Notes under the pieces: generated by a model | Databases searched by the model: none | Seen by the model: the letters and a program-made list of their open reading frames with translations, nothing else | Told to the model about the DNA's origin: nothing | Source of the DNA: the human T2T-CHM13v2.0 reference genome, Homo sapiens | Length of the DNA stretch: 64,000 bases | Reading direction: 5' to 3' (one strand) | NCBI RefSeq assembly: GCF_009914755.1 | Contig: NC_060928.1 | Shown here: one piece after another, positions 381 through 49,018 of the stretch | Position numbering within the stretch: the stretch's first letter is position 1 | Layout of the letters: each line of letters begins with the position of its first letter | Translations under genes and position numbers: made by a program

Positions 381-1730
381 TCCACAATTTTCCTTGTAAT
401 CAGCTTTCCACCTCAATATTCCTAAAACAACATCTATCCTGGAATGAATGAGTCTGACTCTTTTCAGTGCACTAAGCCATATGCTGGGCACGATAAAGGA
501 GGCAGAAGACTGAAATGACACAGTTTCTGTCCTTGCAGAGTGTACAATCTAGTAGCAGACAAAATACATGCACATGTAACTACAATAAATTGCTAAGCAC
601 AGCAGAGGCATGGAAATGAGCAGAAGTCAGTGGGAGATGACAGACCTGCACTTCTCCCCCTTGCAAGCAAAGTGCCTCCAATGGTATAGGAGAGAGCATG
701 CAGAAGAAGCCTGACGGCCCATATAAGAGTGAAATTCCTTTCAAAGCATCTATTTCTTTTCTTGTTTATTTTAATGGAGCATCAAATCAGTATTTTAATT
801 TGCTTTACAACCATGGAAATTTATGTTCCAGGGAGATGCCACGTTGATCCTGTGGCTTCTTATATAAGCAGATATAATGCCTTGTAACCCTGAGAATCAG
901 GGTGACTTAGTCTGGTGCTTAGGTGTACGGAAGTGTGCAACCTAGCACCTAGAACCTTTCCTGCGTTAATGTCGTCATTCATCACCCACCACTGCTTACA
1001 TAATTCCATTAGAAGCTATGATTCACAGTCTGGAAGGAAGCAAGGGATAGAGTGGCCTATGCTTTCTTTTCCATACACCAATTACAACCTGCTGATATTC
1101 CAACACCATTTGAATCAATAACTGGCAGAGAGAGAAAAGGATTGGGGAAAAATTAAGTCTCTGTAGGAGGTTCATGGTGATCATAACCCTACAGGGACCT
1201 TAACATTGTCAAGTGTGCCTGTAAGGGCCTGGCTTTCCCATTTGAAGTCCAATATTTTGATATATGCAAGATTATCCAAGATTCAGAAATCTTCGCAATA
1301 ATAATTATTTAAGAAAGATTTATCTAAACGTCTTTATTTTCAGGCTATTTTAAAGTTTCATAGTATTTGGATTCTATAACACTAACAACACTAATAAGGC
1401 TTATTTTTTTTCTGTTCTAAGCAACATAAACAAGGAGATACTAGTTTTTAACCACTCTGGAAATAAATAAAGCTAAACTGAAGCATTCTCTACTCCCCTT
1501 CATTTTCCTTCCCACTTTTGAACTAGTTGGAGTTTTGTCTAACGTATTCTAATTGCTTTTGTTTGTGCAACAAAGAAAACATTGAAATTTGTATAATTTC
1601 TGGGCAGAACTAGTATGTTGTACTTCAAGGCTTTTTTATGTTTAACTTTATGAGTGTAACTTTTTTGTTTAAAGTAATATTGATGTCACAAATATTTTCA
1701 AATTCAGTAGATACTAAAAATTATTATAAT

Positions 1731-2184
1731 TTTTTTTTGAAATGGAGTTTTACTATAGTGCTCAGGCTGGAGTGCAGTGGCTACTAAAAGGCATGATCCC
1801 ACTATTGGCCAGCAAAAGAGTTTTGACCTGCTTAGACTCACGAGAAGGTCTTGTGAGTCTGACTTCTTAGAAGCTGTCATGTGAAAGCTGTGCCGGTGAC
1901 TGGCTTCCCTGATCCTGCCCTGCTCCAGTCTGAGCCTCACTGACTCCGAGTGTTCAGCGTTTTAGTTGTGGAAATGAGTTGATAATTTGCACAGGCTGGC
2001 TCACCCTTTCTTGGGCAAACTGGTGGTTCCCCTGCTCCCCGGAGGTCACCATATTGATGCCAAACTTAGCGTGGACACCCAATTGGCATAGTGCACTATA
2101 GCCCAGAACTCCTGGACTCAAGTGATCTTCCTGGCTCAACCTCTCAAGTAGCTGGGATTACAGGTGTGTGCCATCACACTCAGC
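1731..2184 (-). pseudogene. 7SL (SRP) RNA processed pseudogene, interrupted by an insertion at about 1833-1993
   Basis: Antisense 7SL sequence including S-domain parts that Alu lacks (gcatgatcccactattggccagcaaaagagttttgacctgct; ggaggtcaccatattgatgccaaacttagcgtggacaccc); poly-T (A tail) at 1730-1738; 5' end at 2184. Confidence 0.9.
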
Positions 2185-4228
2185 TAGATTGTTTTTAATT
2201 TAAAAATGTTACTGGACAGCGTTAGCACCTTTTAACAAGAATTTATTTGTGCCCAACACCATGCTTAGCACTTAATGGGCATTCAATAAACATTAATTCA
2301 ATGGATGGATGAATGAAATACTACAAAAAGCAAATTAATCACAGAATCCCTTTTAAAAACATGAATGAAAGCACTGCTGTGATTATGTTGTAGGTAAATT
2401 CATGATATTTTCTATCATTGGTGTATTTTGGTGAATAAATATTACAAGATCAATTCATAAAATCTTCGAAGAAATGGTTCTCTAGAAATAATTCAGTTTT
2501 TTATCATTCTGTAATTTTGGCCAACTGTGACGAGAAAACATTTTCATTTGTGTCTGTCTGAATGGTACAGCTTTTTAGGTTTTCTGAAGTCCAGCACAGA
2601 GTTGAATAATGTTGAGAGTGTTTCTTTTGGCTGAAACATAGAATTGTCCACTTTTTACTAGAATGGCAGGTTAGAACTCCTGAGTTTTAATTGATTGGTT
2701 ATTAAATTATTGCATATTCTTAGTAGAATATGCAATATTAGTAAGTGGCTAGAACTCAAGAAAATGTCACTGGAATTGTTCAAGATAAATCTTATCCTGA
2801 TGTTTCAGGAGGGAGGGGAAAAATGTCTTGTTTTATCCCACACTTAATATTCTTTATAGGTAAGAATTAGCTGAAATGTGTCTTGCTTATGGCTGTTTCT
2901 TTTTTGTTGATTAAATATCTATAAGCCATCCATTAATTATTGATCATCCATGGGGTACATCACTGAATGTTCACTTTTGAGTTCAGCTCCCTGCACATGT
3001 GTTCATGTACCATCATTGTGCCCTGTTGATCATGGTGTTAATAAAGGAAAAAAACAATCAGAATTGGATGGCCTCATAAAGGCTAGGTAACAATTCCAAT
3101 GAAATTAGAGAAAAACATGTACTTAGGGAGTACACTCCCATGGCCTGCCTTGATTTTTTTCATTACCGGGAAGGAAAACTATCTTCTAAGCCTAGCCAGT
3201 CCAAGCTTGCCTTAAAATATAAACTTTATTTCACAGGGTTCCTAAAAAATATGGAGCCACCATGAGTTCTTTTATTTTCTGTTACTATAGAAATTGTTAG
3301 CACTTGTAAATGAAGTTACTAATGTACAAATTATTAGCGTATTTTGAAAGACTGTCTCAATACCTAGAAGTTTAACATGTAAAACGAAACAAGAGCACTT
3401 TAGGGAAACTGCACATTGCTCCCTGACTTCATGTGATTCTGGGAAGCTGAATGAACAATGGTTTTCCTGAATTTAGTAGATTTAGGTTTAGATTGGACAT
3501 GTCATGTGTGTGAAAGCAGATGTGGTTAATAGGGTAGTGGATAGAACAGAATTCTTCCCAGAAAGAGCTTCTATTAGGTCATATTCAAAGGAACTTTTCT
3601 TCCCACGATACCATATTTGCGTTGACACAAAATTTCACCTTTTTTCCTTCTTACCCTCTTCCAGAAACACAAATAATTTTTATGTGAAGAAAATGTTTAC
3701 CAAAATTCTAAGGTAAACCTTATATAGCTTCCTGTATGTCATTTTGTGGCTCCTAATGGCAAAGTTAAGGAGAGAAGTTTCTGCAATTGTGACTTATCTA
3801 CAGATAAACAATGCCTTATTATTATTATTCTTGAGGCATCTGTGAGGGAAAATTCAATAAGGAAAGGGGATTCAAAGGGAGATTTTAAAAAATCCTTGGG
3901 AAATTCCACACATGGTCAAGGGGCTCATACCCATGACTCCTGAGGCATGTCAGCCAAAGACATTGCACAGGATTTTATACTGAGTCACCTCTCTGGAATC
4001 TGAGATCTGAATGGAGCCTGGAGAAGGAAGTTGAGTGTCCTTGGTCACAGTTACCACTTACTTGCTGAGCCAGAAGAATTCTGGAAGAGTTCCTCTCTTC
4101 AGGAGATTTTTTAATGTACCCACCATACGTGAGGATTTTAGGATCCAATTCAGACCCTGTTACACAGAGGTCACCGTCCAGAAGGGAGACACAAGAAATC
4201 ACTTATGATACAGCACATTGGACTAAAG

Positions 4229-5358: not shown

Positions 5359-6699
5359 GTTATATTTGAGAGCTGAATGGGATAATGTATGGGAAGTCAG
5401 AATGGTTCCATAAATAGACGGAAATTACAATTCCTGCAGGAGCCTTTTAAACTTAACCTGTCTTAAAAATTTCCTACAAATCCAGCCTGACAGGCTGTGA
5501 CAGGGAGCTGAGGTATTTAGCGGGTAGCAGGAGGGGCACTGGACATGCGAGGAGCCAGAGCTGGGGCAATCGGTAGGGAGGGACTACCCACCGGTCCAGC
5601 CACTCCTTTCACAAGAAGGGGATGTGTACACAAGGAAGAAGGTCTTGTGAGTCTGACTTCTTGGAGGCTGTTGGGCGAAAGCTGTGCCGGTGACTGGCTT
5701 CCCTGACCCTGCCCTCCTCCAGTCTGGGCCTCACTGACTCTGAGCATTCAGCGTTCTAGCTATGAAAATGAGTTGATAATTTGCATAGGTTGGAACACAG
5801 TTGTGCTAAAGACGTACTCTTTGGTTACCTTGGTAGTTACTTTTTTTTTTTTCTGGTCCCATTTCCCTGCCATAGGAAATAATACACAGCTCTAAAAAAC
5901 AATACACAAAATAATGTAAGAAATCTATGGGGTAATAGGGTATGTTTGATCTAGTGGGGAGGGAAGTAGCTTCACTAGGTGATTATGGGAAGGTTTAGGA
6001 TCATGTTATTCATGAAGAGGAAACAAGCAGCGAGAATTCCAGGAAATCATCATAATAAAACAAAGAGTTCCAGGAAATCATCATAATAAAATAATGGCTG
6101 CTATCATTTATTACTATACTAAGCATTTTACAAATATTGTTATTAATGCTCACGACAACTCATTTCCATTGTTTTTTTTCATTAAAGTCAGCATTTACAC
6201 ATGAGAGAAACTGGGGCCTCAGACACTAAGTGATTGTAAGTGTCAGAGCCTCAATTTGAACAAAGACTTTTATTCGGTACTAAGAGTTCTGGAGGCAGAT
6301 GATGATGACGGTTGCGCAATAATGTGAAGACTTAATATTACTGAACTATATATTCAAAAATGAATGAGATTATAAATTTTATGCTGCACGTATTTCACTA
6401 CAATTAAAAAAGAAAGTCTATACCTTGTATACTACATTGCTACATATTCCAAAGATATTTTGATGTTACTATTATGATAGACCCCACATTAAGGAATTGC
6501 CTGCTTTCCCTTAAATGGAAAGAAAACAGGGTCCTAATACCCTCCCTAAAGTGGCTCAAGGAACCTCAGCATAGGTTTCCTTTCTGTCTCCTTTTTTCCC
6601 CTCTCCATCTTTTTAAAAATTATTCTCCTTCTGTCCCTTCTCACATCCTTCTTTCACCTTTCCTCACCCTGAACAGATGGATAGACTGCCTTCCTTCCC

Positions 6700-15430: not shown

Positions 15431-18185
15431 GTCTTTGTTCTTTCTTGAACTCTTCCTTTTCTTGGGTGATAGACTTCGTCAACGTCTAATGAGGATATCT
15501 AGGTGCTAGTCTCTGCTCATCAAATGATTCTTATGGCTCAGGAGCCGAATGGGACGTAAATAAACAGTTAAGTCTCATGAACTCACTTTGCATTCATCTC
15601 TAGAAGATGACAAAACATTTGTATTTATGTGTAGCGTGGCACTTTAGTTAAACTTTGTACCCCACTTTGCTCTATTTTAAAGCAGAATATCCTTAAAAAG
15701 GATACTTAGTCCTGCTTTTTTTTTTCCGCCTAAGCCCATTTAGTCCTTCTACTCATTATGCAAGGACTCAAATGGTTATCTTTACAGAAGTGAGACAAGA
15801 TAGAATCAATGCTCTTGTAGTCACTTCATCTTTGTCCATTCCCACTTCTGATGGAGAGGGTTCTAGGACATAATGCACTGAAGGTTACATTGTGAGAGAT
15901 GAACAACATTTGCAAAAGAGGTCTTTTTGCCTTGGAAAGGCTTCATTCTTAAAAAAAAATGTGAGCATCAAGGTTAAGTAGACCTCATTAGCTCAAACTT
16001 TAAGGATGATATCAGGATAAAGTTGGGCCCATGAGAAGAGAATGAGAGGGAGATATAGTGACATGAAAATAAGGAGGAAAACGAGGTGTCTATGTAAGTT
16101 GGGCTCACCATAAATACAAAGGCAACCGTTAGGGAAAAGCAAAGAAGTCTTTGCACATCCTCAGAACTCTGAATGTCTTAGTGATGCTGTATGAGTGAGT
16201 CTTAATGATAGTGAACTGAATCAGTCAAGCCAGGTTGTGTCCATATGAGAATGTGTCTTTGCTAAACATGCCAACATCACTGAAGCAAAGAAACTTGGAG
16301 TTTTCTTTAAGATATAGGTCTTTTTTACCTATCCGGCCCAAGCTTTCTCTTCTTGTCACTCCATGCACTGTGTTCCGTATGCTAAATAGTTTGAGAAACC
16401 CAAATGGGCCATGTTCGCCTACATTTCATTGTCCTGTACTTCCTGTCCTGTACTAGCAAAGCAGTCCCATTGGTCTTTCTTCTCCTCATTAACAATAAAG
16501 GTAACACTTTTGATGTTGTTTCTTCAGAAAACCTTCATTCATCAAAACTGCCTCAAAGATCATGTTTGTTTGATTCCAGAACTTCCTGTAATTACCTGTA
16601 TTGTAACACTCATCACTGTATTTTACTTACTTGTGTAACTAATTTTCCATATTCTGCACTAGACAACAAAGTCCTTTAAGTCAGGTACTATATCTATTTA
16701 CATAGCATTCACATCTCCTACAATAAGGGACATTAGCAGATAAACAACACATATTAAATGAATAATGAAGTTTCTGAAATACTACAGTTGAAAACTATAG
16801 GAGCTACATTATATAGAATAAACATTTACTTTGCTATAGAATTCAGTGTAACCCAGGCATTATTTTATCCTCAAGTCTTAGGTTGGTTGGAGAAAGATAA
16901 CAAAAAGAAACATGATTGTGCAGAAACAGACAAACCTTTTTGGAAAGCATTTGAAAATGGCATTCCCCCTCCACAGTGTGTTCACAGTGTGGGCAAATTC
17001 ACTGCTCTGTCGTACTTTCTGAAAATGAAGAACTGTTACACCAAGGTGAATTATTTATAAATTATGTACTTGCCCAGAAGCGAACAGACTTTTACTATCA
17101 TAAGAACCCTTCCTTGGTGCTCTTTATCTACAGAATCCAAGACCTTTCAAGAAAGGTCTTGGATTCTTTTCTTCAGGACACTAGGACATAAAGCCACCTT
17201 TTTATGATTTGTTGAAATTTCTCACTCCATCCCTTTTGCTAGTGATCATGGGTCCTCAGAGGTCAGACTTGGTGTCCTTGGATAAAGAGCATGAAGCAAC
17301 AGTGGCTGAACCAGAGTTGGAACCCAGATGCTCTTTCCACTAAGCATACAACTTTCCATTAGATAACACCTCCCTCCCACCCCAACCAAGCAGCTCCAGT
17401 GCACCACTTTCTGGAGCATAAACATACCTTAACTTTACAACTTGAGTGGCCTTGAATACTGTTCCTATCTGGAATGTGCTGTTCTCTTTCATCTTCCTCT
17501 ATTGAAGCCCTCCTATTCCTCAATGCCTTGCTCCAACTGCCTTTGGAAGATTCTGCTCTTATGCCTCCACTGGAATTAATGTCTTAGTACCACTTGTCTA
17601 TTCTGCTATATAGTCAGTCCTTACATTGCTTTCTTCTTCTGATAGACCAAACTCTTTAAGGACAAGTACCTAGTCTTATCTATTTCTAGATCCCCCACAT
17701 TACTCAGAAAGTTACTCCATAAATGTTTGTGGAACTGATTTCTATGTGAAGCACATGTGCCCCTTCACTCTGTTAACATGCATTAGAAAACTAAATCTTT
17801 TGAAAAGTTGTAGTATGCCCCCTAAGAGCAGTAACAGTTCCTAGAAACTCTCTAAAATGCTTAGAAAAAGATTTATTTTAAATTACCTCCCCAATAAAAT
17901 GATTGGCTGGCTTATCTTCACCATCATGATAGCATCTGTAATTAACTGAAAAAAAATAATTATGCCATTAAAAGAAAATCATCCATGATCTTGTTCTAAC
18001 ACCTGCCACTCTAGTACTATATCTGTCACATGGTACTATGATAAAGTTATCTAGAAATAAAAAAGCATACAATTGATAATTCACCAAATTGTGGAGCTTC
18101 AGTATTTTAAATGTATATTAAAATTAAATTATTTTAAAGATCAAAGAAAACTTTCGTCATACTCCGTATTTGATAAGGAACAAAT

Positions 18186-40999: not shown

Positions 41000-41913
41000 T
41001 GATGGGGACAGGAGGCAGAGAAATTCTGGGCAGAAAACGGCGGATCCCTGGTGAAGCTTCAACCTCAAGCCTAAAACCCTGAGACCACAGCCCAAAGTGA
41101 GAACTTATAACCCTGTTTTCCCATTCAAATGTTGCCTTTTCCTAAGCCACCCATGGCCCTGCCCCACCCCATCATGTACCTATAAAGACCCTGGACTCAG
41201 CAAGCAAAGCAGAGAAGCAGCTGGATATTGAGGACTATAGCTAAATGTCAGAGAGAAGTGGCTGGACTTCAAAGGGACAGCTTGATGGCATAACTTTGGA
41301 GAAGAATCCTGCCGGAGACAGCTGGACTTCAGAGGAAGATTATCTTCCTTCCCTGTTCCCTTTTCAGCTCCTCTTCCCACTGAAGGCCACTTTCATCAGC
41401 AGTAAAATCACACACATTTAACATCCTTCAATTCGTTTGTGCAACCTCATTTTTCCTGGATGCTGAACAAGAGCTTGGGAGCCATAAGTGTGGATACAAA
41501 AGGCTGTCTAAGGCAGAGGACCCACTGAGCTGTTAAAACTTAAGCTGTCTGTGGACAGCAGAGCTAAAAGAGCACTGTAACATGCTTTCTGAAGCTTCAA
41601 TGGTCACAGGCATCCCCCTGTAGATGCTGCTGCTGTGGGGCCTGCACAGAGTTTGCCCCTGCCAGTACCCAAAAGCGCTCACCCCAAATCCTGCCCGCTC
41701 ACCTGTGTGCTCCCTCCTGCAGTAAGTCTGAGTAAGTGGAGTTCACTCATGCCAGCACTGAAGTGGACAGCTGTTTCCAGCACTCCTGCAATCCAGTTCT
41801 CGCCTCATTCACTCACGCACACCCTTCTGCAAGGAGTTAAGAGCTGCTGGCTGAGTAAATGAGGCACCCCTGTTGCGAGTCCTGTGAAGGGGTCAGGGAA
41901 ATATCCTGCTTCA
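41000..41913 (+). mobile_element. 5' LTR (LTR1-family)
   Basis: tgatggggacaggaggcagagaaattctggg ... gggtcagggaaatatcctgcttca. Confidence 0.88.
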
Positions 41914-48067: not shown

Positions 48068-49018
48068 TGATGGGGAAAGGAGGCAGAGAAATTCTAGGTA
48101 AAAAAGGGCAGGTCCCTGGTGAAGCCCTATCCTCAAGCTGAAAAGCCCGAGACCATGGCCAAAGTGAGAACTGTTTTCCCATGCGAACTTTGCCTTTTCC
48201 TAAGTCACCCATGACCCTGCCCCACCCCATCCTGTGCCTATAATGACTCCAGACTCAGCCAGCAGAGGGAAGAAGCAGCTGGACCTTGGGGACTACAGCT
48301 AGACATTGGAGAGAAGTGGCTTGACTTCAGAGGGATGGCTTGACCACGTAACTTTGGAGAAGAATCCTGCTGAACATGGCTGGACTTCAGGGGAAGATTA
48401 CTTCCCCTTTTCAGCTCTCTTTCCCACTGAGAGCCACTTTCATTGGCAATAAAATCTCCCACATTTACCATCCTTTAAATCATTCATGCGACATCATTTT
48501 CCGTGGACACCTGACAACAGCTTGGGAGCCACAAGTGTGAATACAAAAGGCTTCATACTGGCCCTTTTCCCTCGCTGGCAGAAGGCAGCCACCTCACATG
48601 AAAAGAAAGAAGTCCCACTGAACTATTAACATTTTAGCTGTCTGTGGATGGGAGAGCTAAAAGAATACTGTAACATGTCCTCTGGGACTTCAGGGGTCAC
48701 AGGCACCATCCCATTGATGCTGCTGCAAAGCCCACATGGAGTTTGCTCCTGCCAGTGCCTAAATGTGCTTGCCCTGGCTCCTGCACTCGCTCACCTGTGC
48801 ACTCCCTCCTGAAAGGGGTGGAACACAGCAGGTGCAAGTGAGTGGAGTTTGCTCCTGCTGGCACCAAAGCAGCCAGCTGGTTCCAGGGCTCATGCAATCC
48901 AGTTCCTGCCTCATTTGATAGCGTGCTCCCTCCCACAAGAGTTGAAAGCTGCTGACTGAGTAAATGAGGCACCTCTGTTGTGAGTCCTGTGAAAGGGTCA
49001 GGGAAATATTCTGCTTCA
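48068..49018 (+). mobile_element. 3' LTR (LTR1-family)
   Basis: Homologous to 41000-41913; AATAAA at 48448. Confidence 0.88.

What the first reader, a model, noticed from the sequence alone, without database searches (positions are those of the whole stretch)
1833..1999. 157-bp copy of DNA from 3.8 kb downstream sits inside a 7SL pseudogene
Seen: 1843-1999 aligns without gaps to 5637-5793 in the same orientation (18 mismatches in 157 by hand count, about 88.5% identity). It lies in the 7SL S-domain, replaces roughly 15 nt of 7SL, and the right junction shares microhomology with 7SL (ggctgg vs GGCCGG). The donor does not look like any repeat I know. Inference: a locally templated insertion, either break repair by template switching or a template jump during L1-mediated integration of the 7SL RNA. 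Either way, possible regulatory DNA upstream of CXCL8 was duplicated.
Basis: partly seen in the sequence, partly recalled or inferred. Interest (0 to 1): 0.7.

Follow-up and report, generated by a model that had tools for sequence, protein, structure and literature searches.

The report
DNA repair scar with fold-back junction
A 157-base piece of nearby DNA sits copied inside an old, dead 7SL RNA gene copy upstream of the interleukin-8 gene, likely as a patch made while a chromosome break was repaired; it is one more case of a known kind of repair scar, with an unusually readable hairpin at one edge.

Summary
Window 1843-1999 matches 5637-5793 without gaps (139 of 157) and interrupts a minus-strand 7SL retrocopy (1737-2184), replacing 13-14 nt. 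Three genome searches found only these two copies.

The 8-nt 'filler' at 1834-1841 is an inverted copy of the insert's own end, extending a 4-bp stem already present in the donor. This fits fold-back synthesis and implies copying on the minus strand.

Divergence and CpG decay make the duplication younger than the 7SL copy (p 0.0008-0.03). The divergence test fails if the donor was frozen, but the donor also lost CpGs. This favours later break repair over an L1 template jump at integration.

The anatomy is that of a repair-mediated duplication (Pace 2009: 824 human cases). This locus was not found in their table. The regulatory claim is weak: a published IL8-enhancer viewpoint and the consensus NF-kB and AP-1 sites map between the two copies, not inside them.

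Verdict: a new member of a known class, with a clean stem-loop signature. Interest is low to moderate.

The parts
1737..2184 (-). 7SL RNA retropseudogene, full length (nt 1-299), interrupted
   Evidence: Rfam RF00017 118.3 bits; alignment to L006
2000..2184 (-). 7SL nt 1-184 (5' part, with one 1-nt insertion)
1994..1999 (-). Right junction microhomology, 7SL nt 185-190 overlapping donor 5788-5793; likely priming site
   Evidence: 5 of 6 to 7SL, 5 of 6 to donor; priming role inferred
1843..1999 (+). Acceptor: 157-bp copy of 5637-5793 (probably starts at 1842 with one later change)
   Evidence: 139 of 157 identical, ungapped
1834..1841 (+). Fold-back filler: exact reverse complement of 1853-1860; with it 1834-1860 is a hairpin of 12-bp arms (11 of 12 paired) and a 3-nt loop
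   Evidence: -7.0 kcal/mol, z -2.4
1832..1833 (+). Left junction: likely 2-nt microhomology, since both the fold-back continuation and 7SL nt 204-205 predict the same two bases; 1833 differs by one transition
   Evidence: needs one assumed later mutation
1737..1833 (-). 7SL nt 204-299 (3' part)
1725..1738 (-). Short A-tail remnant overlapping a possible left target-site duplication (1725-1736)
   Evidence: 9 of 12 match to 2185-2196; weak
2185..2196 (+). Possible right target-site duplication, ending in a T run followed by AA (L1 endonuclease-like site; consensus as quoted in PMC5110952)
   Evidence: weak
5637..5793 (+). Donor, single-copy DNA within a G+C-rich patch (5501-5750, 59% GC)
5636..5646 (+). 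Pre-existing 4-bp inverted repeat with 3-nt loop at the donor end where copying stopped; likely fold-back primer
3898..3907 (+). Context, not duplicated: consensus NF-kB site between the copies; consensus AP-1 site at 3981-3987; likely core of the studied IL8 enhancer
   Evidence: i4C viewpoint mapped by ApoI sites; identity with the deleted p65 site is inferred

Best explanation
A 157-bp copy of DNA from 3.8 kb away, plus an 8-bp inverted copy of its own end, replaces 13-14 bases of an old 7SL retrocopy, and was likely made during repair of a germline chromosome break long after that retrocopy had inserted. Inferred steps: (1) a break falls in 7SL nt ~190-204; (2) the 3' end of the minus strand (7SL 5' half) anneals to the donor through 5-6 bp and copies 157-158 nt; (3) the new strand lets go, its last four bases fold back on a complementary four bases three nucleotides away and copy 8-10 more bases of itself; (4) the extended end joins the 7SL 3' half through about 2 bp. 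This is a repair-mediated duplication finished by snap-back synthesis, most likely by polymerase theta (about even odds for the enzyme). The product is probably neutral.
For: Shown: two-copy segment; deletion plus microhomology plus filler at the junctions, the commonest pattern in Pace 2009 Table 1 (10 of 39); length 157 bp against their mean of 162 and distance 3637 bp within their 5-kb class; no poly(A) or TSD on the insert. Fold-back: the 8-mer matches exactly; chance about 3e-4 for 20 registers at the junction and 5e-3 anywhere in the insert. A 4-bp stem with a 3-nt loop fits the preferred SD-MMEJ primer of 3-4 nt spaced under 10 nt (PMC5728401 passages), and human Pol theta extends such stem-loops from 2 bp (PMC11292364). 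Timing: the 7SL copy differs from L006 at 29 of 235 non-CpG sites and keeps 0-1 of 20 CpGs; the two copies differ at 17 of 151 sites in total where 32.5 are expected if the same age and both neutral (P 0.009; P 0.0008 with CpG-class sites removed); the insert keeps 2 of 3 CpGs that the donor keeps (Fisher P 0.012-0.034) and each copy lost 3 of 6 inferred CpGs, so the donor was not frozen.
Against: The divergence test loses significance if the donor evolved slowly: P 0.09 at half rate and 0.45 if frozen (0.013 and 0.14, whose CpG class is outcome-dependent and biased in my favour). The CpG test rests on 3-6 sites. The left microhomology needs one assumed mutation, the right one has a mismatch to each parent, and the hairpin has one mismatch. 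The direction of synthesis also fits second-strand synthesis during L1 integration. Fold-backs form without Pol theta in yeast (PMC11724301) and Pol eta and lambda can do it in vitro. No orthologue could be examined.
Confidence: 0.68

Rival explanations
1. A free fragment (a single-stranded flap from the donor, or a cDNA of a donor-region transcript) folded back and extended itself first, then was captured at a break in the 7SL copy by end joining. Same timing, different route.
For: In yeast, complex insertions are often two pieces from one locus in inverted orientation joined to the break by 0-4 bp (PMC11724301 section 19). Class 2 TSIPs are proposed to be cDNA patches (PMC5110952 passages).
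Against: The right junction shares 5-6 bp with the donor; 6-mers matching at least 5 of 6 make up 0.2-0.4% of local positions, which suggests priming on the donor. The donor is close, as in 824 of 1136 cases in Pace 2009. No transcript is annotated over the donor in the supplied table.
Confidence: 0.12
2. Serial template switching by a stalled replication fork (FoSTeS/MMBIR type; recalled), without a two-ended break: 7SL to donor, to itself, back to 7SL.
For: Three short microhomology junctions on one strand in one direction are what serial switching gives; the timing fits.
Against: Nothing specific; the net result (small deletion, short filler, donor within 5 kb) matches the break-repair class. 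No further rearrangement was seen in the 12 kb scanned.
Confidence: 0.09
3. The insert was made during L1-driven integration of the 7SL RNA, by ORF2p jumping onto nearby DNA and back, or by a switch during second-strand synthesis.
For: L1 insertions with sequence templated from nearby DNA are reported (3 cases; PMC11702581 passages). 4 of 29 other 7SL copies end at nt 196-201, two with clear TSDs, so the lost segment is a place where reverse transcription can start. The inferred direction fits second-strand synthesis.
Against: The 7SL copy looks 2-3 times older than the duplication. The insert is internal to a full-length copy, whereas the reported cases were attributed to processing of the target end. 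None of 54 other copies has an insert at nt 185-210. A first-strand jump would need both donor strands as templates.
Confidence: 0.09
4. The segment is an unrecognised mobile repeat and the two copies are independent insertions.
For: The genome search skips very common words (tool note); Dfam was not available.
Against: 2 of 2 candidates in three searches are these two places; no TSD, tail or terminal repeat; the filler derives from the insert itself.
Confidence: 0.02

Closest known systems
Repair-mediated duplications (RDs), Pace et al. 2009, PMC2671141
   Same: A repeat interrupted by a single-copy segment whose donor lies within 5 kb; 157 bp against a mean of 162; microhomology, small deletion and filler; no poly(A) or TSD; 11.5% divergence lies within their chr4 'All primates' rows (median 9.6%, 7 of 24 rows at least as diverged).
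   Different: The host is a 7SL retrocopy (no '7SL' or 'srpRNA' row in their Table S1). The filler is here traced to a fold-back; their main text has no occurrence of 'inverted'. 3.6 kb is in the tail of their distances (753 of 1136 under 3 kb). They invoked SDSA alone.
Snap-back SD-MMEJ / inverted templated insertions of Pol theta-mediated end joining (PMC5728401, PMC11292364)
   Same: Primer repeat of 4 bp with a 3-nt loop, short extension creating a longer inverted repeat and a new microhomology; 8 bp lies in the 3-30 bp range given for mammalian inverted insertions.
   Different: The stem-loop forms on newly copied distant DNA, not on the original break flank; the enzyme cannot be identified from an ancient scar.
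Distant inverted insertions at yeast breaks (PMC11724301)
   Same: Two pieces from one locus in inverted orientation inserted at a break.
   Different: There the inverted overlap has a median of 50 bp and donors are distant; here 8-12 bp and 3.8 kb.
Class 2 templated sequence insertion polymorphisms (PMC5110952)
   Same: Microdeletion, microhomology, added bases, no TSD or tail.
   Different: TSIPs are polymorphic and come from distant regions; this one is old, local and probably fixed (not checked).

Membership tests
Repair-mediated duplication (Pace 2009) | Insertion of at least 50 bp interrupting a repeat whose halves rejoin within 30 bp of consensus | tested here: met
   166-167 bp between 7SL nt 190 and nt 204
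Repair-mediated duplication (Pace 2009) | Insert found at exactly one other place | tested here: met
   2 of 2 candidates in three own-genome searches; sensitivity caveat
Repair-mediated duplication (Pace 2009) | Donor on the same chromosome, 50 bp to 5 kb away | tested here: met
   3637 bp between copies
Repair-mediated duplication (Pace 2009) | Microhomology 2-9 nt, deletion 1-15 nt and/or filler; no poly(A) or TSD | tested here: met
   5-6 nt imperfect microhomology, 13-14 nt deletion, 8-10 nt filler
Repair-mediated duplication (Pace 2009) | Empty site in an outgroup species | not testable with these tools
   no primate genomes held; relative dating used instead
Snap-back SD-MMEJ product | Inserted bases extend a short inverted primer repeat into a longer inverted repeat | tested here: met
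   4-bp donor stem extended to 12-bp arms, 11 of 12 paired
Snap-back SD-MMEJ product | New microhomology at the end of the extension joins the other break end | tested here: inconclusive
   2 nt if one later transition at 1833 is assumed, otherwise 0-1
Pol theta-mediated end joining | Dependence on POLQ | not testable with these tools
   needs an experiment; other polymerases can fold back
L1-mediated chimeric or templated insertion | Insert and host retrocopy have the same age | tested here: not met
   P 0.0008-0.034 across tests, but 0.14-0.45 in the divergence test if the donor was frozen
7SL processed pseudogene | Full 7SL sequence with A tail and TSD | tested here: inconclusive
   7SL body clear; tail short and TSD 9 of 12
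Duplicated CXCL8 enhancer | Donor and copy show enhancer marks or activity | not testable with these tools
   no chromatin data; consensus motifs and the published viewpoint lie between the copies

The most novel reading that the evidence does not exclude
The 'filler' of primate repair-mediated duplications is commonly a fold-back copy of the captured DNA, so that hundreds of local duplications in our genome were finished by polymerase-theta-type stem-loop synthesis in the germline, not by strand annealing alone; this scar upstream of CXCL8 is a type specimen, and the 824 catalogued cases form a fossil record of that activity.
Probability: 0.25. Interest if true: 0.55.

Novelty: new member of a known kind. 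Interest (0 to 1): 0.27.

Why it matters
On its own it is one of hundreds of such scars and probably neutral. Two things give it modest value. First, the junction records the steps of the repair (invasion, 157-nt copy, fold-back, rejoining) and suggests a cheap test on the 824 catalogued duplications: are their fillers fold-back copies? Second, the two copies are direct repeats bracketing the likely core of an enhancer needed for IL-1-induced CXCL8 expression (PMC6939198 passages), so a crossover between them would delete 3794 bp including the NF-kB site. With a longest identical run of 30 bp this would be rare, and no such variant was looked up.

Tried and rejected
Multi-copy repeat: rejected.

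Recurrent template jump at 7SL helix 8: of 54 other copies (29, 25 non-duplicate, three likely functional genes included), 49 span nt 185-210 in one alignment, 4 end at nt 196-201, 1 (L027) has a 16-nt deletion there, and none has an insert. The 30 loci were not counted, since that query selects uninterrupted copies. Only the best-scoring hits among 2552 and 331 candidates were seen. The two long inserts found (L024, L027) are Alu-like and lie at nt 213-227.

Listing in Pace Table S1: no '7SL', 'srpRNA', 'IL8' or 'CXCL' and no chr4 row starting 746-749. The hg18 position near 74.81 Mb rests on a recalled hg18-hg19 offset, and 30 chr4 rows were read directly.

Exact eIL8 deletion coordinates: the appendix of PMC6939198 could not be read, so the match of 3898-3907 to the deleted site is inferred.

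A clean TSD for the 7SL copy was not found. An attempt to anchor hg19 on a 2777-bp fragment with five enzymes failed; ApoI boundaries worked.

Paper searches that returned nothing. Searches listed papers, none describing this locus in what I read.

Full report
Observation. Window 1843-1999 aligns without gaps to 5637-5793 on the same strand, 139 of 157 identical, with 16 transitions and 2 transversions. The first copy lies inside a minus-strand 7SL retrocopy, 2184-1737, which Rfam scores at 118.3 bits with a long insert. Against a full-length 7SL from the same genome (L006; likely RN7SL1, name recalled; L011 and L012 differ from it at 4 and 6 of 299 sites), nt 1-190 lie at 2184-1994 and nt 204-299 at 1833-1738, so 13-14 nt are lost. 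The interruption shows which copy is the acceptor. Own-genome searches with the donor, the donor with flanks, and the insert each returned only these two places.

Junctions. Right: 1994-1999 matches 7SL nt 185-190 at 5 of 6 and donor 5788-5793 at 5 of 6. Left: the bases between the copy and the 7SL 3' part are not random. 1834-1845 is the reverse complement of 1849-1860 at 11 of 12 positions around a 3-nt loop. The donor already has the inner 4-bp stem (5636-5639 with 5643-5646), and the outer 8 bp exist only in the acceptor. The chance of the 8-mer is about 3e-4 over 20 registers at the junction, or 5e-3 anywhere in the insert; hairpins of this quality occur at about ten places in the 64 kb. 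The hairpin folds at -7.0 kcal/mol, 2 of 200 shuffles as good. Continued one step further, the fold-back and 7SL nt 204-205 predict the same two bases, of which 1833 differs by one transition.

Mechanism (inferred). A strand can only copy itself this way if it grows on the minus strand: from the 7SL 5' half onto the donor, along 157-158 nt, folding back at the 4-bp stem, 8-10 nt more, then joining the 7SL 3' half. That is the snap-back route of SD-MMEJ, whose preferred primers are 3-4 nt and under 10 nt apart (PMC5728401, passages). Human Pol theta extends stem-loops from two terminal pairs, and inverted insertions of 3-30 bp are described in mammalian cells; Pol eta and lambda can do related reactions (PMC11292364, abstract and first part of the discussion). 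Yeast makes fold-backs with Pol delta and captures inverted pairs from one locus (PMC11724301, abstract and section 19). So the geometry is shown and the enzyme is not.

Timing. The 7SL copy differs from L006 at 33 of 246 non-CpG sites, or 29 of 235 after dropping junction sites, two variants shared with other copies and the last 3 nt. It keeps 1 of 20 CpGs by the script, and that one is split by a 1-nt insertion. The two copies of the duplication differ at 17 of 151 core sites. If both events were simultaneous and both copies neutral, 32.5 differences are expected (P 0.009); P is 0.09 with the donor at half rate and 0.45 with the donor frozen. Removing CpG-class sites gives 11 of 139 and P 0.0008, 0.013 and 0.14, but that class depends on the outcome and favours my reading. 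A test that does not depend on donor constraint: the insert keeps 2 of the 3 CpGs that the donor keeps, against 0-1 of 20 in the surrounding 7SL (Fisher P 0.012-0.034). Each copy lost 3 of 6 inferred CpGs, so the donor did mutate (symmetric model P 0.0009-0.012). At the 2.2e-9 rate used by Pace the 7SL copy is about 61 My old (42-88) and the duplication about 19 My (10-33, biased low). Pace's chr4 rows shared by all their primates have a median divergence of 9.6% (24 rows), which points to an older date. The order is better supported than the dates.

L1 rival. L1 insertions can carry nearby genomic DNA (3 cases, attributed to processing of the target end; PMC11702581, passages), and 4 of 29 other 7SL copies end at nt 196-201, two with clear TSDs, like tailless retrocopies (PMC5322556, search listing only). 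The direction of synthesis also fits second-strand synthesis. Against this stand the dating and the survey: none of 54 other copies has an insert at nt 185-210, and one has a 16-nt deletion there.

Known class. Pace et al. 2009 (PMC2671141; parts 1-5 of 8 read, method passages, Table S1 searched) found 824 human duplications defined in just this way: an interrupted repeat, one donor within 5 kb, mean 162 bp, with microhomology, deletion and filler. This locus meets every criterion testable here. I did not find it in Table S1, which has no 7SL rows. Their text does not trace fillers to inverted copies; their Figure S1 was not read. Class 2 TSIPs are a looser relative (PMC5110952, passages).

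Regulatory claim. Weiterer et al. (PMC6939198; passages, EV legends and i4C source rows; the appendix with guide sequences was unreadable) deleted a p65 site in an enhancer upstream of IL8 and lost inducible expression. Their fragment boundaries map to the window by ApoI sites (11 of 12 at one offset, next best 2). Signal from the IL8-enhancer viewpoint is concentrated in fragments 2396-3901 and 3901-4076, around a consensus NF-kB site at 3898-3907 and an AP-1 site at 3981-3987. The NF-kB pattern has 3 matches in the window against 5.7 expected by chance, so the motif alone proves nothing. Neither copy carries a perfect AP-1 or NF-kB site, only one-mismatch AP-1-like words. The INKILN preprint (10.1101/2023.01.07.522948, passages) notes several H3K27ac peaks across the region without coordinates; its supplements are closed and could bear on this. 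So the copies flank the studied enhancer, and whether the donor has activity of its own is open.

Verdict. A real, old, locally templated duplication; most likely a break-repair scar made after the 7SL copy inserted; a new member of a described class, whose one added value is a readable fold-back junction. Interest 0.27.

Noticed in passing
window 17130-17169: Near-perfect hairpin with 18-bp arms (one mismatch) and a 4-nt loop, about 40 bp past the RefSeq silencer (16797-17091) and 1.2 kb upstream of the CXCL8 start; possibly another template-switch product.
   Followed up: no
window 2706-2739: A+T-rich hairpin with 15-bp arms (one mismatch) between the acceptor and the NF-kB site.
   Followed up: no
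window 1843-1999, 3898-3987, 5637-5793: The two direct repeats bracket the likely IL8 enhancer core; a crossover between them would remove 3794 bp. Longest identical run 30 bp.
   Followed up: partly
L024 (1147-1455) and L027 (1691-1976): Two other 7SL copies carry Alu-like inserts at the same place, with 7SL nt 213-227 duplicated in both: a shared insertion site or a shared origin.
   Followed up: partly
L005, L007, L015, L029: Four 7SL copies end at nt 196-201, two with 17-19 bp TSDs that overlap the RNA end; L014 and L016 both end near nt 235 with TSDs.
   Followed up: partly
L008 and L026: Two chr2 7SL copies share a 4-nt insertion at nt 71 and a 12-nt deletion at nt 232, so probably a segmental duplication.
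   Followed up: no
window 41000-41913 and 48068-49018: A 900-bp direct repeat at 73% identity, not among the long masked stretches listed; the insert and donor give only a non-significant 41-42 bp hit at 48209-48250 within it (E 0.38-1.5).
   Followed up: no
window 6033-6094: 31-bp tandem duplication, 94% identical, 240 bp downstream of the donor.
   Followed up: no
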